A DNA stretch of 6,298 nucleotides, from positions 1 through 6,298 of the IMG/VR virus record IMGVR_UViG_3300045988_014504; one strand, given 5' to 3'. Every line of letters begins with the position of its first letter. Within the stretch, counting starts at the first letter, position 1. Below, in pieces: positions 1 to 6,298 of this stretch. The notes under the pieces were generated by a model. The model saw nothing but the letters and a program-made list of their open reading frames with translations, was not told the DNA's origin and searched no databases. The translations under genes were made by a program, and so were the position numbers. This DNA is from a virus.

Positions 1-55
1 ATGCTAATGATGCTAATGAGCGTCAAGCTCAGCTGAATCGTTCTTTTCAACGTCA
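1..55. repeat. Terminal redundancy (left copy). It is identical to 6244-6298 and marks a circular 6243-nt genome opened inside the VP2 gene.
   Basis: Base-by-base comparison: atgctaatgatgctaatgagcgtcaagctcagctgaatcgttcttttcaacgtca occurs at 1-55 and again at 6244-6298, running to the window end. Confidence 0.95.
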
Positions 56-1095: not shown

Positions 1096-1103
1096 TATCT
1101 TTG
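1096..1103 (+). promoter_or_regulatory. Candidate Bacteroidota-type -7 promoter box (TAnnTTTG) in the VP2 / ORF56 intergenic spacer.
   Basis: TATCTTTG at 1096-1103 matches TAnnTTTG exactly and lies about 42 nt upstream of ATG 1145. A TTTG at 1080-1083 is too close (12-nt spacer) to be a canonical -33 element. Confidence 0.3.
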
Positions 1104-1127
1104 TAATGCAGAAAAGAACTGATAATA

Positions 1128-1147
1128 ATTTAAAATTTACAGTTATG
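1128..1147 (+). repeat. Copy 1 of a 20-nt direct repeat / shared gene leader, ATTTAAAATTTACAGTTATG, ending in the ORF56 start codon.
   Basis: 19 of 20 bases are identical to 1667-1686 (ATTTAAAATTTACAATTATG). Both copies end on an ATG that opens a small ORF. Confidence 0.85.
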
Positions 1148-1315
1148 AAATATGAATTGCGTATTAAAGTTGGCCGTAAGGTAGTATTTTCGAGAGTTGG
1201 AACTTTTGATTCTTGCGCTTCTTGGATTAAAACATGGGAAGAGTATCCTATGACGCATGAGTATGTTTATATTTTGCGTCCTATACTTCAAGATGTTATT
1301 AATCTTCAGGACTAA
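1145..1315 (+). CDS. Hypothetical small protein, 56 aa (MKYELRIKVGRKVVFSRVGTFDSC...).
   Basis: Open frame with the genome-typical T-ending codon bias (cgt, gtt, tct, gct, cct). Start moved from the track's 1106 to ATG 1145, because 1145 sits at the end of the conserved 20-nt leader also found before ORF64. No recognisable family. Confidence 0.55.
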   Translation: MKYELRIKVGRKVVFSRVGTFDSCASWIKTWEEYPMTHEYVYILRPILQDVINLQD

Positions 1316-1570
1316 GAGCCCATCGCGGCTCTGGAGCGATATACACCCGCCGCCCGCGTAGGGCTTGGTATAAAATGGAGCGGAGCGACTTCCCTAGAGG
1401 AGCGTTCCGCTCCGGTATTTTAGCACGTAGGTGCGCAAAGGCAAGACAGACTTGACTTGCCGTGCCTATACCCCTATGTTATTCAAGCGAAGCCCCTAGT
1501 TGTGTCCGAAGGAAATTTGAGTTATCATCTCAAATTCGGCCTCCCTTGTCCATAAACGCACAACTCACAC
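1316..1570 (+). other. GC-rich, hairpin-dense non-coding island. Candidates are a complementary-strand origin, a structured RNA, or an acquired element.
   Basis: No ORF of 60 aa or more on either strand. Hand-counted GC is about 57% over 1316-1500, against about 35% in 1141-1200. Helices found by eye: 1315-1320/1327-1332; 1340-1344/1368-1372 enclosing 1352-1355/1361-1364; 1377-1384/1406-1413; 1441-1445/1456-1460 flanked by 1423-1427/1461-1465; 1498-1504/1559-1565 enclosing 1514-1521/1529-1536. Confidence 0.6.
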
Positions 1571-1666
1571 TCTAACCGTAGAATAAAAAACTCCGAAATA
1601 TTTTGTTTATTCAAAAATAATGCTTTCCTTTGCCCCTGTAGAAACCGAATTCATTAGTTTATTAAC

Positions 1667-1686
1667 ATTTAAAATTTACAATTATG
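1667..1686 (+). repeat. Copy 2 of the 20-nt direct repeat / shared gene leader, ATTTAAAATTTACAATTATG, ending in the ORF64 start codon.
   Basis: 19 of 20 bases are identical to 1128-1147. The two copies start 539 nt apart. Confidence 0.85.
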
Positions 1687-1878
1687 CTGAAATTTATTAT
1701 TTCCCTTAAAGAAAAACAGACTGGTCGTGATGTTATGCCGCCTTATATTGTCAATTCTTTGGATGGTCTTGGAAATTATTCTGAGCGAGTTTCTCCGTTG
1801 GGTCTTATTGTTATTGTGGATTCAATTAAAGAAGAAAATAATTTTGTTGAACTTAAAACTCGAACTGATGAAAAGTAA
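1684..1878 (+). CDS. Hypothetical small protein, 64 aa (MLKFIISLKEKQTGRDVMPPYIVNSLDGLGNY...).
   Basis: Open frame with strong T-ending codon bias (ggt cgt gat gtt, tat att, aat tct, ggt ctt att gtt att). The ATG is preceded by the conserved leader. Stop TAA at 1876-1878 overlaps the next small gene. No recognisable family. Confidence 0.6.
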   Translation: MLKFIISLKEKQTGRDVMPPYIVNSLDGLGNYSERVSPLGLIVIVDSIKEENNFVELKTRTDEK

Positions 1879-1951
1879 TAATATTTGGAAAATCGTAATT
1901 GGTGCTGTTTCTGCTGCGCTTGGTTACATTCTTAATGCTATCGGATTATGA
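1868..1951 (+). CDS. 27-aa single-pass membrane peptide (MKSNNIWKIVIGAVSAALGYILNAIGL). Candidate holin-like or membrane-lesion partner of the downstream peptidase.
   Basis: ATG 1868 lies 11 nt before the ORF64 stop. Its TGA stop (1949-1951) overlaps the peptidase ATG (1948-1950) as ATGA. There is a short polar N-terminus followed by about 22 hydrophobic residues. T-ending codon bias is maintained after the ORF64 frame closes. Very short, so uncertain. Confidence 0.45.
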   Translation: MKSNNIWKIVIGAVSAALGYILNAIGL

Positions 1952-2268
1952 ACTATTCTCTTATGCATTTCCTTGAGTATTTGTTGTTTTCTAATGCTCA
2001 TTTTGCGGTAACTAGTGCACGTCGCACTCCCGAGCAGAATAAGGCTTGTAATGGTGCTCCTAATTCTCAGCATTTGATAGGTGAGGCTATTGACATCAAG
2101 CCTTATGGTTCTACTAGTTTTAATAAGTTGCTTGAGATGATTCATGGTTATTCTGACCATATCTCTCCCTTTGACCAACTTATTATTTATCCTACGTTTA
2201 TTCATATTTCATTTGGCTCGCGTAGTCGTCGCCAAGTAATTGATAAAAGAAATGAAATATTCTCCTGA
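1948..2268 (+). CDS. Zinc D,D- or L,D-peptidase of the M15 family (Peptidase_M15_3 / VanY-like). Probable peptidoglycan hydrolase (endolysin-like), 106 aa.
   Basis: The segment TSARRTPEQNKACNGAPNSQHLIGEAIDI carries the family signature SxHxxGxAxD (His 2071-2073, Asp 2092-2094). A C-terminal FIHISF supplies the third metal-ligand His (2203-2205). There is no signal peptide and no wall-binding domain. Confidence 0.8.
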   Translation: MNYSLMHFLEYLLFSNAHFAVTSARRTPEQNKACNGAPNSQHLIGEAIDIKPYGSTSFNKLLEMIHGYSDHISPFDQLIIYPTFIHISFGSRSRRQVIDKRNEIFS

Positions 2269-3931
2269 TTTGCTTAAAGCTGTCGACCATTGTCAATATC
2301 GCTCTTTTATAACTAATCGTTACACAGGTCAACGCATTGCTGTGGATTGCGGCCAATGTGATTACTGTATTCATAAGCGTGCTCAAAAAGCGTCCATGCG
2401 TGTGAAGACCGCCGGAAGCGCTTTCAAGCATTCTTATTTTGTAACGCTTACTTATGATAATGATCATATTCCTTTAATGAATTGTGAGGTTCTACATAGT
2501 GAGTATGAAGACACATTAAGTATCTCAGGAGATAAAGTTTTTGGTTATGAACTTCATTCTTATATCCCTGTTTCTGAGTATCAACCTGAGGATTCTTCCC
2601 GATTGTGTCATATATTCTTCACGCAAGTTCAAGGCACGGTGCCGTTTGACCGCGAAATTAAGGAATATGTTCCTGTTAAGGATAACTGGTTTCTTAGTAT
2701 GGATGCTATTCGTAGTTTTATCCGTAAAACGCAGGCCGTCGACAATTCGGTATATCCCGTTGCTGAAAAATACGGTGTTGGTAACCTTATACCCTTTTTG
2801 AATTATGTTGATATTCAGAACTATATTAAACGATTACGTAAACATTTACATTTAGTTTTAGGTACTTATGAAACGTTACATTTCTACGCTGTTGGCGAGT
2901 ATGGCCCAGTCCATTTCCGCCCGCATTATCATATCTTACTATTCACGAACTCGAAAGAAGTCTCAGAGGTATTACGACAGTGTCATAATAAGAGTTGGAA
3001 ACTCGGTCGTTCAGATTTCCAGATTGCCCGCGGTGGAGCTTCGTCGTACGTTGCGAGTTACGTTAACAGCCTTAGTTCTGCTCCCTTATTATATAAATCA
3101 TGCCGTGCATTTAGACCCCGGCAAAGAGCGTCTCTTGGATTTTTTGAGAAGGGCGAGGTTTTTAACGAGAATGAAGACCTTTATCACTCGGTCAAACAAA
3201 AAATCGATTCTGTCATTAATGGACGAGTCTATAACTTCAACGGAATTACTGTTAAATCGACTCCCCCCATGTCGTATATCCGTACCTTACTCCCCCGATT
3301 CTCAAGTGCTCGCTATGATGATGCTGTTGCGATTTCTAGAATTATTCGAGCTGTTGCAGATGCGCCAAAAAGAATTGCAAGGTTCGGTATTATAGATTAT
3401 GATTCCGATTCTATCCTTTCTATTGTTCGTGCTTATTATCAGTATCTTACATTGAATCATCACCTAACCAATGAGGACGAAATTATATTACATAATGCTC
3501 GGTGCCTTACTAGGCTCTGTAACAGTTCTTCTGATGTCGATATTGAATCTTATATTAATAAGTTGTATCGGCTATTCCTTTATGTCAGTAAATTTCTTAG
3601 GAATTGGCATTTGCCTGCCATCGGTGGTAATCTTGACCCTTATGCCAATCGTATTATGTTTATCATCAAAACTGGAATAGAATATGAAAAGAAAAAAGAT
3701 TATCAAAATTTACGAGATTCATATACAGTCCGAGCCCAATTCCCCGACATATCGGATAGTATGTTCGTCTTACCGCAGGACGGGCGTGAAATTGATTTCA
3801 TTTCGTCCTCTTCGAGTGAGACGTTTCAGCTCCTTGACCAACTCAGATACCGTAGTGCAGCATTCTGTCGTGATATGGTTAAGCATAAGAAATTAAATGA
3901 TGCGAATGATATATTTAACCGTATGGTCTAA
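2252..3931 (+). CDS. Rolling-circle replication initiator (Microviridae VP4 / gene A-like HUH endonuclease), about 559 aa.
   Basis: CGQCDYC zinc-ribbon-like motif (Cys codons 2348, 2357, 2366). RCR motif 1 FVTLTY (2438-2455). HUH motif PHYHILLF (His 2924-2926 and 2930-2932). Twin-tyrosine motif SYVASYVN (Tyr 3047-3049 and 3059-3061), closely resembling phiX174 protein A YVAKYVNK. Start set at ATG 2252, since the track start at 2240 is a TTG; it overlaps the peptidase 3' end by 17 nt. Stop TAA at 3929-3931. Confidence 0.9.
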   Translation: MKYSPDLLKAVDHCQYRSFITNRYTGQRIAVDCGQCDYCIHKRAQKASMRVKTAGSAFKHSYFVTLTYDNDHIPLMNCEVLHSEYEDTLSISGDKVFGYELHSYIPVSEYQPEDSSRLCHIFFTQVQGTVPFDREIKEYVPVKDNWFLSMDAIRSFIRKTQAVDNSVYPVAEKYGVGNLIPFLNYVDIQNYIKRLRKHLHLVLGTYETLHFYAVGEYGPVHFRPHYHILLFTNSKEVSEVLRQCHNKSWKLGRSDFQIARGGASSYVASYVNSLSSAPLLYKSCRAFRPRQRASLGFFEKGEVFNENEDLYHSVKQKIDSVINGRVYNFNGITVKSTPPMSYIRTLLPRFSSARYDDAVAISRIIRAVADAPKRIARFGIIDYDSDSILSIVRAYYQYLTLNHHLTNEDEIILHNARCLTRLCNSSSDVDIESYINKLYRLFLYVSKFLRNWHLPAIGGNLDPYANRIMFIIKTGIEYEKKKDYQNLRDSYTVRAQFPDISDSMFVLPQDGREIDFISSSSSETFQLLDQLRYRSAAFCRDMVKHKKLNDANDIFNRMV

Positions 3932-3947
3932 TTTAAATTGATTGATT

Positions 3948-5687
3948 ATGAGTGATTTTAATCCGCTAGACCGAGCGAAAATTGCCGTGCATCGCTCTTC
4001 CTTTGATTTGTCTAGCAAAAAATTATTTACGGCAAAAGTCGGAGAGATTCTTCCCTGCTATTGGCAAATTGCCATTCCTGATACTAAGTATCATATTTCT
4101 TCCGATTGGTTTACTCGTACTGTTCCCGTCAATACGGCGGCTTATACCCGTATTAAAGAATATTACGATTTTTACGCTGTGCCGTTACGTTTGATTTCTC
4201 GTGCTCTTCCGCAGGCGTTTACTCAGATGACGGATTATATGACATCTGCTGCTAGTAATACTGCTAATACCGAGATGTTGAAGTCTGTTCCGAATACATC
4301 GTTGAATTTGTTGTCACTAGGTCTTCAGACGATTAATGGTCAAGATGTCTTCGATGATGCTGGCTTCCCTTATGTCTATGGTGCTTCTAAGATATTGGAT
4401 ATGCTTGGATATGGTTCTTTCCTTGCGCCTTCGAATACCGCTAAAGCTGCTATTACCAAAGCTTATTTAGGGGTTCAGTCTCTTGATGATACTCTCAATC
4501 CTTTGGTCTATTCTTCTAGTCAGACTGTGAATCTTCTTCCGTTGTTGGCCTATCAGAAGATTTATTATGATTTCTTCTCTGAGTCTCAATGGGAAAAACA
4601 CTTGGCTTATGCATATAATGTAGACTATTGGGACGGTAAATCTCAATTGACTCTCGCTCCTGAAATGCTCCAGCTTCGGTATGCTAACTATCCGAAAGAT
4701 TACTTTATGGGCATGCTTCCGAATAGTCAGTACGGCTCGGTAGCTATTCTTCCGTCGGCAACTAATTTAGACCCCTCTAATGTCATTGTCCTCTCTCGTT
4801 CTTCTTCGGGTGTTTCTGGTGGCTCTGTTGGTCGTCTTTCAAATGCAGCTGCTTCTACTTCTATTATCTCTACTAATACTGATTCATCCAATCGGTATGC
4901 TTATGTCAATTCCGACCTTTCTGCCCTCTCAATCCGTGCTACAGAATACCTACAGCGCTGGAAAGAAGTAGTACAGTTTGCAAGTAAGGATTACTCAGAC
5001 CAGATGCGTGCTCAGTTTGGTATTAAAGCTCCTGAATACATGGGAAACCATGCTCATTATATCGGAGGTTGGTCTAATGTAATTAATATTAACGAAGTCT
5101 TGAATACCAACTTGGAAGCTGACGGTTCTCAAGCCGTTATCGCTGGTAAAGGTGTAGGTTCTGCTTCCGGTCATAAGTTAACTTATGATTGTGGCGCTGA
5201 GCATCAGGTTATCATGTGTGTGTATCATGCTGTTCCTATGGTTGATTGGAATCTGACTGGTCAAAATCCTCAGTTGACTGTTACGGCTATTACTGATTTC
5301 CCCCAACCTGCGTTCGACCAATTAGGTATGCAAGCTGTCCCTGCCTTGAATCTTCAGAATAATCCTGGTCGGGTAGTTTCTGGCTCTCTTGGATATAATC
5401 TTCGCTACTGGCAATGGAAATCTAATATTGATACCGTTCATGCCGCATTCCGTTCTGGTATGGCTTATCAGGCTTGGTCTGCTCCTATTGATGGATGGGG
5501 CGTCCTGACTTCTAAAGGTGCTTGGTCTTACCAGTCTATGAAAGTTCGTCCTCAGCAATTGAATTCTATCTTTGAGCCTCAAGTTTCAGGTCAGAACTGT
5601 TCCGTTGCTTATGACCAGTTGTTGTGTAATGTTAACTTCCAAGTTCATGCTGTGCAGAATTTGGATAGAAATGGTTTACCTTATTAA
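3948..5687 (+). CDS. Major capsid protein VP1 (Microviridae F-like jelly-roll capsid), about 579 aa.
   Basis: The N-terminal block HRSSFDLSSKKLFTAKVGEILPCYW...FTRTVPVNTAAYTRIKEYYDFYAVPLRLI matches the conserved N-terminal signature of Microviridae capsid proteins, resembling as I recall them the Bacteroidota-associated / Alpavirinae-like ones. Size and position next to rep fit. Start set at ATG 3948, since the track start at 3942 is a TTG. Stop TAA at 5685-5687. Confidence 0.9.
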   Translation: MSDFNPLDRAKIAVHRSSFDLSSKKLFTAKVGEILPCYWQIAIPDTKYHISSDWFTRTVPVNTAAYTRIKEYYDFYAVPLRLISRALPQAFTQMTDYMTSAASNTANTEMLKSVPNTSLNLLSLGLQTINGQDVFDDAGFPYVYGASKILDMLGYGSFLAPSNTAKAAITKAYLGVQSLDDTLNPLVYSSSQTVNLLPLLAYQKIYYDFFSESQWEKHLAYAYNVDYWDGKSQLTLAPEMLQLRYANYPKDYFMGMLPNSQYGSVAILPSATNLDPSNVIVLSRSSSGVSGGSVGRLSNAAASTSIISTNTDSSNRYAYVNSDLSALSIRATEYLQRWKEVVQFASKDYSDQMRAQFGIKAPEYMGNHAHYIGGWSNVININEVLNTNLEADGSQAVIAGKGVGSASGHKLTYDCGAEHQVIMCVYHAVPMVDWNLTGQNPQLTVTAITDFPQPAFDQLGMQAVPALNLQNNPGRVVSGSLGYNLRYWQWKSNIDTVHAAFRSGMAYQAWSAPIDGWGVLTSKGAWSYQSMKVRPQQLNSIFEPQVSGQNCSVAYDQLLCNVNFQVHAVQNLDRNGLPY

Positions 5688-5697
5688 TGTATTGATT

Positions 5698-6144
5698 ATG
5701 AGAAGTTTTGCTTATAAGAATGAGAATTTTGAAAAGGATTCGTGTGTTCCTGAGTTGAAGGAAGGCAATCCGTGTTATCAGGCTTCTGTTTATGACTCTG
5801 TTATGTATGATGAGACTCCTGATGGCGATTTGATTCAGTGTGATATGACTCAGATTCTTCTGAACCAAGAAAAGTATCGTCGTTTGCTTGGTGATATGAA
5901 TGTCAATAATATCCTTGCCCAAATGCATCCTACTCCGTCTACTCCTATGGATGATATGACGGATGAGGAACGTTTTGCTTGTGTTATCTCGCGTCATTGC
6001 CAGACAATGTCTGAACGCCAGGCTGTGTTGAAGCAATTGGCTCAAGAAAAGTCTGAATTAACCGCATATGCCGAGGCTATGCTGGCAGAGGAACAGGCAG
6101 CGCCCGCCCAAGTGGCTTCCGCCCCTGCCGATAGTGCACAATGA
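5698..6144 (+). CDS. 148-aa acidic protein between VP1 and VP2. It is a possible internal scaffolding (VP3-like) protein, but its function is not established.
   Basis: ATG 5698 sits 10 nt after the VP1 stop and shares the 12-nt context ATTGATTATGAG with the VP1 start. The protein is D/E-rich (MRSFAYKNENFEKDSCVPELKEGNP...DDMTDEERF...) with an A/P/Q-rich tail. Its TGA stop overlaps the VP2 ATG. The scaffold call rests only on size, charge and position. Confidence 0.6.
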   Translation: MRSFAYKNENFEKDSCVPELKEGNPCYQASVYDSVMYDETPDGDLIQCDMTQILLNQEKYRRLLGDMNVNNILAQMHPTPSTPMDDMTDEERFACVISRHCQTMSERQAVLKQLAQEKSELTAYAEAMLAEEQAAPAQVASAPADSAQ

Positions 6145-6298
6145 GGTATTTAGAGATTGGAGAGAGCATGCTCTCTCCTAGAAATGAACATCATCTTCTT
6201 GGTAGTTTGTTTAGCGCTATTGGTAATGCTTTTGCTACTTCTAATGCTAATGATGCTAATGAGCGTCAAGCTCAGCTGAATCGTTCTTTTCAACGTCA
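6141..6298 (+). CDS. N-terminal part of the minor capsid / DNA pilot protein VP2. It runs off the window end and continues at base 56 once the overlap is removed (6244-6298 = 1-55).
   Basis: ATG at 6141-6143 overlaps the TGA stop of the upstream gene (caATGAgg). Hand translation gives MRYLEIGESMLSPRNEHHLLGSLFSAIGNAFATSNANDANERQAQLNRSFQR with no stop to the window end, in the same frame as the 1..1052 reading frame. ATG 6168 is an alternative start. Confidence 0.8.
   Translation, partial: MRYLEIGESMLSPRNEHHLLGSLFSAIGNAFATSNANDANERQAQLNRSFQR
6159..6178. repeat. Perfect 20-nt palindrome GGAGAGAGCATGCTCTCTCC (potential 8-10 bp hairpin in ssDNA or RNA).
   Basis: The reverse complement of 6159-6168 equals 6169-6178 exactly. 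It lies 15 nt after the stop of the 148-aa gene, inside the first codons of VP2. Confidence 0.9.
6244..6298. repeat. Terminal redundancy (right copy), identical to 1-55.
   Basis: Same 55-nt string as 1-55. This is typical of a circular contig assembled with overlapping ends. Confidence 0.95.

What the first reader, a model, noticed from the sequence alone, without database searches (positions are those of the whole stretch)
1316..1570. GC-rich, multi-hairpin non-coding island in an otherwise AT-rich, gene-dense microvirus
Microvirus genomes waste very little sequence, yet about 250 nt here carry no ORF of 60 aa or more on either strand. Composition also jumps: by hand count, about 57% GC over 1316-1500 against about 35% in the adjacent ORF. 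The stretch is packed with helices, some nested. These are 6 bp at 1315-1320/1327-1332; 5 bp at 1340-1344/1368-1372 around 4 bp at 1352-1355/1361-1364; 8 bp at 1377-1384/1406-1413; 5 bp at 1441-1445/1456-1460 stacked under 1423-1427/1461-1465; and 7 bp at 1498-1504/1559-1565 enclosing 8 bp at 1514-1521/1529-1536 plus 1506-1508/1537-1539. Hypotheses, all inference: (a) a complementary-strand origin or primosome/primase recognition site, analogous to the hairpin clusters in the G4 and phiX174 intergenic regions; (b) a phage-encoded structured ncRNA; (c) a recently acquired host-derived segment or attachment site. I could not match it to any RNA family from memory.
Basis: partly seen in the sequence, partly recalled or inferred. 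Interest (0 to 1): 0.75.

Follow-up and report, generated by a model that had tools for sequence, protein, structure and literature searches.

The report
Candidate replication origin of gut microviruses
The GC-rich non-coding stretch in this small gut phage is a real, strongly conserved bundle of hairpins that most likely works as folded single-stranded DNA to start copying of the phage genome, a step whose signals are unknown outside the phiX174 group.

Summary
Window 1305-1570 is non-coding (longest ORF 37 aa), 57% GC against 35% next door, and folds better than shuffles. It is not a chimera: the same element sits at the same locus in more than 120 independent microvirus genomes. Twelve helices are 97.6% paired, 20 of 56 pairs show compensatory change, and no shuffle reaches this.

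The element has two modules. The 5' module (1315-1465) is absent in some phages. The 3' module (1487-1570) is a three-way junction followed by a conserved single-stranded CTTGTCYATAAACG; its architecture is kept in relatives whose peptidase is 45-55% identical (less completely at about 35-44%).

No Rfam family, bacterial genome or plasmid matches it. Three features point to DNA rather than RNA. Covariation is almost purely Watson-Crick (G:T 63, A:C 48 of about 5,600 cells). Triloops are frequent. The DNA mini-hairpin motif GCGNAGC is enriched about 80-fold on the + strand, with N free.

Best reading: a folded viral-strand ssDNA replication element, most likely the complementary-strand origin (0.45). 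Rivals are the Rep nick origin (0.2) and a structured RNA (0.2). A host-derived or attachment origin is not supported. Function is inferred, not shown.

The parts
1304..1314 (+). Conserved lead-in CTTCAGGACTA. In the window it also holds the stop codon of the small ORF 1145-1315.
   Evidence: Conserved whether or not an ORF ends here. The long-range pairing with 1541-1551 proposed by RNAalifold has no compensatory change.
1315..1332 (+). Hairpin A (AGAGCC / GGCTCT). The core GCC/GGC at 1318-1320/1327-1329 is invariant.
   Evidence: In most relatives the outer part has an A.G mismatch or a bulged G, and 1316:1331 switches between A:T and G:C.
1322..1340 (+). Helix B (ATCGC / GCGAT). It pairs the loop of hairpin A with downstream sequence, either as a pseudoknot or as an alternative fold.
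   Evidence: 1325:1337 is GC in 81, AT in 12 and CG in 5 sequences; 99% of cells are paired.
1338..1351 (+). Invariant stretch GATATACACCCGCC. Its middle, ATACACC (1341-1347), is the single-stranded linker between helix B and the next pairing.
   Evidence: Thirteen invariant columns in a row. TATACACC followed by a hairpin is also present in the distant relatives L192-L194.
1348..1364 (+). Hairpin C (GCCC GCGTA GGGC) crossed by CGC/GCG pairing (1348-1350 with 1356-1358).
   Evidence: 1348:1358 is CG in 89, TA in 6 and GC in 5 sequences, 100% canonical. 1353:1363 and 1355:1361 also covary.
1377..1413 (+). D region. It forms either a long hairpin 1377-1387/1403-1413 (+1389-1392/1399-1402), or mini-hairpin GCGGAGC (1380-1386) plus local hairpin GGAGCG-TTC-CGCTCC (1399-1413).
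   Evidence: 1400:1412 is GC in 56 and AT in 39 sequences, which favours the local hairpin. The long form has 12 A.C cells and mostly one-sided changes. In 9 distinct sequences in the script's classification (seven among the 50 rows of A3) the local hairpin is replaced, in most (7 of the 10 fetched) by a mini-hairpin GCG[A/T/C]AGC.
1414..1423 (+). Conserved GGTATTTTAG after the D hairpin. Together with D it is one of only two terminator-like sites in the window.
   Evidence: In L028 the T run is longer and directly precedes the 3' module.
1423..1434 (+). Hairpin E (GCAC-GTAG-GTGC).
   Evidence: 1425:1432 is AT in 78 and GC in 23 sequences. The loop varies (GTAG, GAAG, GGA, AGA ...).
1435..1465 (+). 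Hairpin F (GCA..GGCAAG / CTTGCC..TGC), with a variable tip.
   Evidence: The stem is conserved and the tip varies in sequence and length.
1466..1480 (+). Junction between the two modules and an indel hot spot. Relative to most relatives, the window lacks a 14-nt hairpin TATACA-CCCC-TGTATA here.
   Evidence: Insertions of unrelated hairpins or tandem repeats occur here in L011, L015, L029, L076, L101 and others.
1487..1493 (+). Mini-hairpin GCGAAGC (GCGGAGC in some relatives). It opens the 3' module.
   Evidence: The stem pairs are invariant or nearly so and the middle loop base varies A/G. The motif is identical to the d(GCGAAGC) DNA mini-hairpin (PMC13037366).
1498..1565 (+). Three-way junction. 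Helix H (AGTTGTG / CACAACT) encloses hairpin I (1505-1513, TCC-GAA-GGA) and hairpin J (1514-1536, AATTTGAG-TTATCAT-CTCAAATT).
   Evidence: H: 713 of 714 cells are Watson-Crick and one is G:T, with 3 covarying pairs. I: 1506:1512 is GC in 60, CG in 30 and AT in 9 sequences. J: 3 strongly covarying pairs in the 102-row set (5 of 8 with some double-sided change in A3). The same architecture with different sequences occurs in L192, bajarodmic virus 410, Dulem virus 257, mar63 and mar56.
1537..1558 (+). Single-stranded joiner: a pyrimidine-rich tract followed by the conserved CTTGTCCATAAACG. It is the candidate priming start site or, in the rival reading, the Rep nick site.
   Evidence: CT.GTC and downstream A positions are invariant across 24 divergent sequences while the pyrimidine tract varies. 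No partner was found by mutual information.
1565..1570 (+). Conserved TCACAC tail at the end of the element.
   Evidence: Invariant. Sequence diverges right after it.

Best explanation
The island is a cis-acting replication element that acts as folded single-stranded DNA of the packaged (+) strand. Most likely it is the complementary-strand (minus-strand) origin.

Proposed mechanism, all inferred:
1. After the ssDNA genome enters a Bacteroidales host, the GC-rich hairpins and the very stable GNA-triloop mini-hairpins stay free of single-strand-binding protein.
2. They mark the site for the host priming enzyme (primase or RNA polymerase).
3. That enzyme starts an RNA primer on the conserved single-stranded tract (CTTGTCYATAAACG) just 3' of hairpins I and J. 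This is the same layout as in G4 oric and RSF1010 ssiA.

The 3' module (1487-1570) is the core. The 5' module (1315-1465) is an accessory set of hairpins. Its D hairpin plus T-rich tail probably also ends late transcription.

Shown here: conservation, structure, strand-specific motifs, and absence from hosts. Inferred: everything about priming.
For: (1) Real, selected structure. 56 pairs in 12 helices are 97.6% paired. 20 pairs and 177 cells show double-sided change. 0 of 500 shuffles reach this, and slid controls pair at only 26-46%.

(2) DNA-like pairing rules. Over 13 helices and 102 sequences there are 5480 Watson-Crick cells, 63 G:T and 48 A:C. At the 13 covarying pairs the counts are 30 G:T and 33 A:C. 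Wobble is therefore no better tolerated than A:C.

(3) DNA-type loops. Hairpin I is C[GNA]G in the window and most relatives, with N = A, G or T; other loops occur in about a fifth of the sequences. Four of nine hairpin loops in the common form of the island are triloops. Hairpin I also takes GNNA loops (GAAA, GTAA, GATA).

(4) Mini-hairpin enrichment. GCGNAGC occurs at 8.1 per kb on the + strand of the island, against 0.10 per kb elsewhere and 0.11 per kb on the - strand, in 90 genomes. The intergenic gap of mar56, whose 5' part does not align with the window's, has five copies, four of them in that part (N = C, C, T, T; the fifth, N = A, is the 3'-module copy), against 0.035 expected and none on the - strand. 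Most variants that lack the local D hairpin (7 of the 10 fetched) carry GCG[A/T/C]AGC in its place.

(5) Precedent. These same motifs mark ssDNA priming sites: GCGAAAGC in G4, GCGTTAGC in St-1 and alpha3, CCGAAGG in RSF1010 ssiA. The DNA forms are far more stable than the RNA forms (PMC13037366). The window has CCGAAGG at 1506-1512.

(6) Position relative to transcription signals.
- Terminator-like hairpin plus T run between VP2 and the island in L192-L194 and in all 8 mini-D genomes the script could classify.
- Terminator-like hairpin directly before the 3' module in phages that lack the 5' module.
- Terminator-like site D + GGTATTTTAG inside the island in the others.

(7) The element is among the most conserved nucleotide stretches of the genome. 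It is 95-97% identical where the genomes are about 85% identical, and it ranks 5th of about 250 windows of 50 nt.

(8) No Rfam family matches in the window or in 7 homologous loci.
Against: - No priming, primer or protein binding has been observed. The initiation specificity of Bacteroidales primase is unknown.
- There is no sequence similarity to the G4, phiX174 or M13 origins.
- Two crossing pairings (1322-1326/1336-1340 with hairpin A; 1348-1350/1356-1358 with hairpin C) have one-nucleotide first loops. That geometry is typical of A-form RNA pseudoknots. In DNA they may have to be read as alternative folds.
- In most genomes the island directly follows the VP2 stop codon or an accessory ORF with no terminator, so at least its 5' part is probably transcribed.
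- The + strand has the same sequence as the mRNA, so strand specificity alone cannot separate ssDNA from RNA.
- The universal 3' module could instead be the Rep origin.
- The Watson-Crick-only argument rests on a moderately diverged clade, and no control RNA was analysed the same way.
Confidence: 0.45

Rival explanations
1. The 3' module is the viral-strand (+) origin. The phage Rep (VP4, an HUH nuclease) would nick in the single-stranded CCCTTG/TCYATAAACG tract. That tract is displayed by the three-way junction when the structure extrudes from the supercoiled replicative form. The variable 5' hairpins could then be the minus-strand origin, giving an origin cluster like the f1 intergenic region.
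For: - The 3' module is the non-coding part kept in all relatives, including distant ones found through their peptidase rather than through the island itself. By analogy, the 30-nt (+) origin is what phiX174 and G4 share, while their minus origins differ (established knowledge).
- A conserved single-stranded sequence flanked by hairpins is typical of HUH origins.
- Pairing that is symmetric between G:T and A:C is what cruciform extrusion on both strands predicts.
- There is a loose resemblance of [C-rich]-CTTG-[AT-rich] to the phiX174 origin CTCCCCCAACTTG|ATATTAATAAC.
- The common form of the island has its best local match in the whole phiX174 genome right next to ori(+), at 4318-4352, with score 29 against 23 for the next best.
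Against: - The phiX174 30-mer has no convincing match. The best ungapped score is 18 of 30, at unrelated places.
- The window's own island does not pick the phiX174 origin as its best hit.
- In phiX174-like phages the origin lies inside the Rep gene, not in an intergenic region.
- The strong + strand bias of GNA mini-hairpins is not needed for a nick site.
- The resemblance to phiX174 comes down to a 4-mer plus base composition.
Confidence: 0.2
2. The island is a structured RNA. It could be the 3' untranslated end of the late (VP1-VP2) transcript, where pseudoknots and hairpins stabilise or terminate the message, or it could be an independent phage non-coding RNA with an unknown partner.
For: - In most genomes the island starts within about 10-25 nt of the VP2 stop codon, or of an accessory ORF, with no terminator in between.
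- There are two compact H-type pseudoknot-like pairings with covariation.
- The D hairpin plus U-rich tail looks like an intrinsic terminator.
- The size and helix count resemble large riboswitches or ribozymes.
- The RNA fold z-score is -3.8.
Against: - No Rfam match at E up to 10 in the window (E up to 1 in 7 homologous loci).
- G:U pairs make up about 1% of cells and are no more common than A:C. In known structured RNAs G:U far exceeds A:C (established knowledge).
- Triloops and two-base-pair GCGNAGC stems are poor RNA hairpins: r(GCGAAAGC) melts at 39 C, far below its DNA counterpart.
- No Bacteroidetes-type promoter lies in front of the island in 84 of 115 distinct upstream contexts.
- Several lineages have a terminator-like hairpin before the whole island or before the 3' module.
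Confidence: 0.2
3. The GCGNAGC hairpins are ops-like signals in the non-template DNA strand. They would pause host RNA polymerase and recruit a NusG-family factor, as UpxY does at Bacteroides capsule operons, to control read-through into the downstream genes.
For: The Bacteroides ops consensus is 5'-YGCGNAGCR, acting as a non-template DNA hairpin (PMC11213015). Hairpin I is TGCGAAGCA in 37 of the 90 genomes scanned (41%). The + strand is the non-template strand for all phage genes.
Against: - The window has TCCGAAGGA at that position, and 1506:1512 covaries freely, so it is structure rather than sequence that is kept.
- The two invariant copies are preceded by A, not Y.
- ops sites sit in 5' leaders just downstream of a promoter and usually occur once. 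Here 2-5 copies lie after the late genes, and the next promoter-like TTTG box is downstream of the island.
- This reading does not explain helices H, J, F or the crossing pairings.
Confidence: 0.05
4. The island is a recently acquired host-derived segment, a mobile element or an attachment site for integration.
For: GC content is well above the phage average. There is an 8-mer GGTGCGCA equal to the start of the E. coli dif site; that comparison is from my own knowledge and is not a test.
Against: - A 23-nt degenerate pattern of the most conserved part found only one chance hit, in a coding region, among 185,579 species genomes.
- There is no plasmid match.
- The element is always at the same locus and co-diverges with the phages. 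No prophage copies were seen.
Confidence: 0.03

Closest known systems
Primase-dependent complementary-strand origins of G4, St-1, phiK and alpha3 (oric)
   Same: Intergenic position on the viral strand of a microvirus. A cluster of stable hairpins. A GCGNNAGC or GCGNAGC mini-hairpin motif at the priming site. A single-stranded start region 3' of the hairpins. Size of 140-280 nt.
   Different: No sequence similarity. No CTG start triplet in the single-stranded tract. A three-way junction and crossing pairings instead of three simple hairpins. The host is Bacteroidales, whose primase specificity is unknown. Function is untested.
RSF1010 ssiA/ssiB single-strand initiation signals
   Same: A hairpin capped by CCGAAGG, the same heptamer as window 1506-1512. 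The primer start lies in single-stranded DNA 3' of the hairpin.
   Different: ssiA is 40 nt long and is read by the plasmid's own RepB' primase. The phage encodes no primase, and its element is six times larger.
phiX174 primosome assembly site (n'/PriA site) and M13/f1 minus origin
   Same: ssDNA hairpins in an intergenic region that direct complementary-strand synthesis by host enzymes. The f1 intergenic region also bundles the minus origin, plus origin and terminator in one non-coding block.
   Different: No sequence similarity. PriA or RNA-polymerase recognition features could not be tested.
ssoA/ssoU-type single-strand origins of rolling-circle plasmids and ICEBs1
   Same: Structured, orientation-dependent non-coding regions of 150-300 nt that act only as ssDNA.
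   Different: The CS-6 motif TAGCGT/A (quoted from memory) is absent; the nearest is TAGCAC at 1420-1425. No plasmid homologue was found.
Conserved intergenic DNA hairpins of reekeekee- and roodoodoo-microviruses (PMC9865509)
   Same: Conserved intergenic hairpins with compensatory changes in non-phiX microviruses, tentatively linked to minus-strand initiation.
   Different: Those are one or two simple hairpins of 13-64 nt. This is a modular element of about 260 nt with 12 helices and mini-hairpin motifs, in an Alpavirinae-like gut clade.
Bacteroides ops sites for UpxY (YGCGNAGCR)
   Same: The same mini-hairpin motif on the non-template (+) strand, in the same host phylum.
   Different: The position is not in a promoter-proximal leader. 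The flanking bases differ. There are multiple copies. The hairpin I stem covaries.

Membership tests
Any Rfam 15 RNA family | Covariance-model match at or near the gathering score | tested here: not met
   The window scanned at E up to 10 gave nothing in 1305-1570. Seven homologous loci scanned at E up to 1 gave nothing in the island. No tRNA or tmRNA was found.
G4-type primase origin | Sequence homology to the oric of G4, St-1 or alpha3 | tested here: not met
   A blastn 'distant' search of 50,697 phage records returned only this microvirus clade.
G4-type primase origin | Stable viral-strand hairpins carrying a GCGNAGC or GCGNNAGC mini-hairpin at the priming site | tested here: met
   GCGGAGC at 1380-1386, GCGAAGC at 1487-1493 and C-GAA-G at 1507-1511. 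The motif is enriched 80-fold and only on the + strand.
G4-type primase origin | 5'-CTG-3' start triplet a few nt 3' of hairpin I | tested here: not met
   The tract 1537-1558, CGGCCTCCCTTGTCCATAAACG, has no CTG. The triplet preferred by Bacteroidales primase is unknown, so this does not exclude a primase start.
G4-type primase origin | Primer synthesis by primase plus SSB on the ssDNA | not testable with these tools
   Needs biochemistry.
phiX174-type viral-strand origin | The 30-nt consensus CAACTTGATATTAATAACACTATAGACCAC | tested here: not met
   The best ungapped match in the window is 18 of 30, at 4065 and 2804, and none falls in the island.
phiX174-type viral-strand origin | Cleavage by the phage Rep at a conserved single-stranded site | not testable with these tools
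   There is only a loose C-rich/CTTG/AT-rich resemblance and a borderline local alignment.
ssoA-type single-strand origin | CS-6 (TAGCGT/A) in a terminal loop, and the RSB element | tested here: not met
   No TAGCG occurs in 1305-1570 (read). The nearest is TAGCAC at 1420-1425, and it is not in a loop. RSB was not tested. The motifs are quoted from my own knowledge.
Structured RNA (generic) | Compensatory covariation in helices | tested here: met
   This is equally expected for folded ssDNA.
Structured RNA (generic) | G:U wobble tolerated far more than A:C at paired positions | tested here: not met
   G:T 63 against A:C 48 of about 5,600 cells. At covarying pairs the counts are 30 against 33.
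Structured RNA (generic) | Own promoter and terminator, or a defined place in a transcript | tested here: inconclusive
   No -7 box within 260 nt upstream in 84 of 115 contexts. The island follows an ORF directly in most genomes but follows a terminator-like hairpin in others.
Bacteroides ops / UpxY site | 5'-YGCGNAGCR on the non-template strand | tested here: inconclusive
   TGCGAAGCA at hairpin I in 37 of 90 genomes. The window has TCCGAAGGA. The invariant copies read AGCGGAGCG and AGCGAAGCC.
Bacteroides ops / UpxY site | Location in a promoter-proximal leader with an upstream pause hairpin | tested here: not met
   The island lies after the late genes. The next conserved TTTG box is downstream at 1629-1632.
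Attachment site / host-derived DNA | A matching sequence in host chromosomes | tested here: not met

The most novel reading that the evidence does not exclude
The element would be the first complementary-strand origin defined outside the phiX174/G4 group. It would be a modular folded-ssDNA machine for Bacteroidales hosts, built from GNA mini-hairpins, a three-way junction and two conserved crossing pairings that would be natural DNA pseudoknots. It might also sit side by side with the Rep nick site, as in the f1 intergenic region.
Probability: 0.3. Interest if true: 0.8.

Novelty: new variant of a known kind. Interest (0 to 1): 0.62.

Why it matters
Microviruses are among the most abundant phages of the mammalian gut. 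How any of them outside the phiX174/G4 group turns its single strand into a duplex, and where its Rep nicks, is not known.

This element gives a concrete target with base-pair-level structure in a widespread Alpavirinae-like clade. It can be put straight into priming, nicking and deletion assays. It also corrects database annotation, because some GenBank records place a hypothetical protein across it.

It also adds evolutionary evidence (covariation of the flanking stems and strand-specific enrichment, with the middle loop base free to vary) that the d(GCGNAGC) mini-hairpin is used as a biological signal in nature. If the RNA reading turned out to be right instead, a 260-nt pseudoknotted RNA in a 6-kb ssDNA phage would be equally unexpected.

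Tried and rejected
1. Rfam with permissive thresholds on the window and on 7 homologous loci, plus a tRNA/tmRNA scan: nothing.

2. RNAalifold's long-range closing helix GGAC.AAGAG / CTCTTGTCC: rejected. It has no compensatory change, two one-sided disruptions, and it overlaps hairpin A.

4. Host origin, prophage or plasmid: the genome-contig scan gave one chance hit in a coding region, and plasmids gave none.

5. Homology of the 5' module to the flank of the phiX174 origin (TATAGACCACCGCCCCGAAGGGGACGAAAAATGG). For the common form of the island this is the best local hit in the phiX174 genome. For the window's own island it is not. The shared 10-mer varies among island homologues, and phages without the 5' module exist. 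I treat it as unproven.

6. A phiX174-like ATATTAATAA at 3552-3561 inside the Rep gene. It varies as expected for codons, at a non-homologous position of Rep. This is not evidence for an origin.

7. Coding potential: the longest ORF is 37 aa, and relatives differ by 1-2-nt indels.

8. Solitary CRISPR-repeat mimic (RNA anti-CRISPR). The resemblance of 1344-1377 to type I-C repeats was judged by eye only. The covarying crossing pair 1348:1358 does not fit a repeat hairpin. Not pursued.

9. Frameshift or read-through stimulator after VP2: no slippery site and no downstream ORF.

10. My script for upstream terminators is lenient. It flagged 20 weak hairpins inside coding sequence. I use only the clear non-coding cases.
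Full report
Setting. The window is one circular microvirus genome of 6243 nt; positions 1-55 repeat at 6244-6298. All genes are on the + strand. PHROGs matches name four of them: pilot protein VP2 (ends at 1052), endolysin/M15-type peptidase (1948-2268), Rep (2252-3931) and major capsid protein (3948-5687). The two small ORFs (1145-1315 and 1684-1878) and the ORF at 5698-6144 had no PHROGs match. A peptidase between VP2 and Rep is the arrangement described for gut Alpavirinae, whose hosts are Bacteroidetes (PMC3394797).

Positions 1316-1500 are 56.8% GC, against 34.5% in the adjacent ORF and 39.9% genome-wide. The longest ORF over 1316-1683 is 37 aa. Positions 1310-1570 fold better than dinucleotide shuffles under every model: z = -5.2 with DNA parameters on the + strand, -4.1 with DNA parameters on the - strand, and -3.8 with RNA parameters on the + strand. 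Three are not.

Conservation. blastn finds the island in 35 GenBank microvirus records from lemur, dog, human and marmot samples. It is 95-97% identical in genomes that are about 85% identical overall. A 23-nt degenerate pattern from its 3' end finds 119 IMG/VR stretches. All but two are microvirus contigs, mostly about 6 kb (a few 7-9 kb), with one copy per genome. They form 108 clusters at 96% identity. This rules out an assembly chimera. Relative to the window's own bases, the island ranks among the most conserved 50-nt windows of the genome: 0.89 identity against a mean of 0.69.

Structure. I derived the helices from mutual information and then counted them on an independent MAFFT alignment of 50 sequences that are at most 93% identical to one another.
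- 56 pairs in 12 helices are 97.6% paired.
- 20 pairs and 177 cells show change on both sides.
- No shuffle out of 500 reaches the observed pairing or covariation.
- Sliding the partners by 1-3 columns drops pairing to 26-46%.

The best-supported pairs are listed here; counts are from the 102-sequence set.
- 1506:1512 — GC, CG and AT.
- 1517:1533 and 1518:1532.
- 1502-1504:1559-1561.
- 1425:1432.
- 1325:1337 — GC, AT and CG.
- 1348:1358 — CG, TA and GC.
- 1400:1412 — GC in 56 and AT in 39 sequences.

Two pair sets cross neighbouring hairpins: 1322-1326/1336-1340 with hairpin A, and 1348-1350/1356-1358 with hairpin C. They are either compact H-type pseudoknots or alternative folds.

In the D region, covariation favours a local hairpin 1399-1413 plus the mini-hairpin 1380-1386. 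The 15-bp long hairpin that is the minimum-energy fold has 12 A.C cells and mostly one-sided changes.

Modularity. Six fetched phages (L013/mar56, L028, L049, L078, L089, L105) lack most or all of the 5' module and keep the 3' module. Unrelated hairpins or repeats are inserted at 1466-1480 in others.

More distant relatives were reached through their peptidase rather than through the island itself. They are L192, bajarodmic virus 410, Dulem virus 257 and mar63, at 45-55% peptidase identity. In the large gap after VP2 they keep the same three-way junction with different sequences:
- helix H as GAGTTTG/CAAACTC or GACTTTG/CAAAGTC;
- hairpin I as CCC-GAA-GGG;
- hairpin J fully compensated;
- a pyrimidine tract;
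- CTTGTC followed by an AT-rich stretch.

Two further relatives, at about 35-44% peptidase identity (bajarodmic viruses 550 and 766), keep only parts of this: a GC hairpin or mini-hairpin and CCCTTG followed by an AT-rich stretch.

What it is not. No Rfam family matches the window or seven homologous loci, and there is no tRNA or tmRNA. A scan of one genome for each of 185,579 bacterial and archaeal species gave only one chance hit inside a coding region. PLSDB plasmids gave nothing. The host-derived or attachment-site idea is therefore not supported.

RNA or DNA? All genes are on the + strand, so the mRNA and the packaged ssDNA have the same sequence. The decision must come from the pairing rules and motifs. 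Four lines of evidence favour DNA.

First, pairing is almost purely Watson-Crick. Over 13 helices and 102 sequences there are 5480 Watson-Crick cells, 63 G:T and 48 A:C. At the 13 covarying pairs there are 30 G:T and 33 A:C. Structured RNAs tolerate G:U far better than A:C (established knowledge). Here the two are equally rare.

Second, the loops look like DNA loops.
- Four of nine hairpin loops in the common form of the island are triloops.
- Hairpin I is mostly C[GNA]G with N = A, G or T, or carries GNNA loops (GAAA, GTAA, GATA); other loops occur in some relatives.
- Most variants that lack the local D hairpin (7 of the 10 fetched) carry GCGAAGC, GCGTAGC or GCGCAGC in its place.

Third, the heptamer GCGNAGC is strongly enriched.
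- It occurs at 8.1 per kb on the + strand of the island.
- Elsewhere in the genomes it occurs at 0.10 per kb, and on the island's - strand at 0.11 per kb (90 genomes).
- The intergenic gap of mar56, whose 5' part does not align with the window's, has five copies, four of them in that part (N = C, C, T, T; the fifth, N = A, is the 3'-module copy), against 0.035 expected and none on the - strand.
- This heptamer is the 'mini-hairpin DNA' motif. d(GCGAAGC) and d(GCGAAAGC) are extraordinarily stable, while r(GCGAAAGC) melts at 39 C.
- The motif is found at the primer-synthesis site of G4 (GCGAAAGC), in St-1 and alpha3 (GCGTTAGC), and in RSF1010 ssiA (CCGAAGG, the same heptamer as window 1506-1512) (PMC13037366).

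Fourth, terminator-like signals sit upstream.
- A terminator-like hairpin plus T run lies between VP2 and the island in L192-L194 and in all mini-D genomes that could be classified.
- Another lies directly before the 3' module in phages without the 5' module.
- In the remaining genomes, D + GGTATTTTAG inside the island is one of only two terminator-like sites in the whole window.
- So the 3' module usually lies behind a terminator-like signal and ahead of the next conserved TTTG box (1629-1632).

Evidence pulling the other way. The crossing pairings have one-nucleotide first loops, a geometry natural for A-form RNA. In most genomes the island follows an ORF with no terminator, so its 5' part is probably transcribed.

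Mechanism proposed (inferred). In the incoming ssDNA the stable hairpins stay free of SSB and mark the site. A host priming enzyme starts on the conserved single-stranded CTTGTCYATAAACG just 3' of hairpins I and J, as in G4 oric and ssiA, where the start lies 3' of the recognised hairpin. The 5' module adds accessory hairpins and probably the late terminator. Others have looked for such hairpins in two other microvirus clades and reached the same tentative link (PMC9865509). I found no description of this element in the papers searched.

Main rival. The 3' module could be the Rep nick origin.
- For: the module is universal; it has a conserved single-stranded core between hairpins; pairing is symmetric between G:T and A:C; [C-rich]-CTTG-[AT-rich] loosely resembles the phiX174 origin; and the common form of the island has its best local match in the phiX174 genome next to ori(+) (score 29 against 23).
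- Against: the 30-mer itself has no match, and the window's own island does not reproduce the phiX174 hit.

An ops-like role for the mini-hairpins (Bacteroides UpxY sites are YGCGNAGCR) is possible but fits the position and copy number poorly.

Verdict. This is a real, conserved and apparently undescribed cis element. Most likely it is a folded-ssDNA replication signal. Its function remains to be shown.

Noticed in passing
L083 11799-13026 (the same array is in L092 5452-6679); cas genes at L083 6329-11348: The IMG/VR 'viral' contigs 3300029016_000046 and 3300028985_000042 are not microviruses. They carry a type I-C CRISPR-Cas locus (Cas5d, Csd1/Cas8c, Cas7, Cas4, Cas1). 12 of its 18 spacers match this microvirus clade, several at 100%. 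One spacer (12306-12339) targets the 3' end of the island. This could identify the host.
   Followed up: partly
window 1096-1315: The 56-aa ORF 1145-1315 is an accessory insert found in only some relatives. It has no PHROGs match. A perfect Bacteroidetes -7 box TATCTTTG (1096-1103) lies upstream, and its leader TTTAAAATTTACAGTTATG (1129-1147) nearly duplicates the leader of the next ORF (1668-1686). Other lineages carry different small ORFs, or only the promoter-like box (L101), at this spot.
   Followed up: partly
window 1466-1480 and the same place in L011, L015, L029, L076, L101: The junction between the two modules is an insertion hot spot. Different relatives carry a 14-nt hairpin (TATACA-CCCC-TGTATA, missing in the window), a hairpin of about 30 nt (CCCTAGATCTATTAGTAATGGATCTAGG), about 120 nt of unrelated sequence, or tandem repeats of ACACTTTGTCAAGTCCAGGACTT.
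   Followed up: no
L001 452-778 (PP511392.1, XCD03858.1); also L006 788-1084: GenBank annotates a 108-aa hypothetical protein across the island in Dulem virus 242, and an ORF that starts inside the island in OP549867. Given the covariation, the 1-2-nt indels and the lack of a conserved frame, these calls are probably spurious.
   Followed up: partly
window 1751-1880: The most conserved nucleotide stretch of the genome across 108 relatives (0.91 identity to the window) is the 3' half of the 64-aa ORF 1684-1878. It overlaps a second frame (1727-1951). The cause may be dual coding or another cis element.
   Followed up: no
window 1340-1376 versus phiX174 4318-4352 (L198): In most relatives (the window itself differs at 1368-1371 and scores lower), TATACACCCGCCGCCC-hairpin-CGAAAAATGG aligns with TATAGACCACCGCCCC-GAA-GGGG-ACGAAAAATGG just after the phiX174 viral-strand origin. 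This is the best local hit in the whole phiX174 genome (score 29 against 23). The significance is borderline.
   Followed up: partly
window 1571-1683: Downstream of the island there are an invariant A run (1584-1589) inside an AT-rich hairpin (GAATAAA...TTTATTC, 1581-1612), an invariant TTTG (1629-1632), and an invariant TTATTAA (1658-1664) about 20 nt before the ATG at 1684. These probably form the promoter and leader of the downstream genes, but the -7 box match is poor.
   Followed up: no
L193 303-1144, L195 406-1227, L197 424-1036: More distant relatives have non-coding gaps of 600-840 nt after VP2, very large for microviruses. They hold direct repeats (L193 has two copies of about 120 nt) and long A/T runs besides the 3'-module analogue.
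   Followed up: no
window 1-55 and 6244-6298: The window is a circular genome with a 55-nt terminal redundancy, so the unit length is 6243 nt. The VP2 gene runs across the junction.
   Followed up: yes
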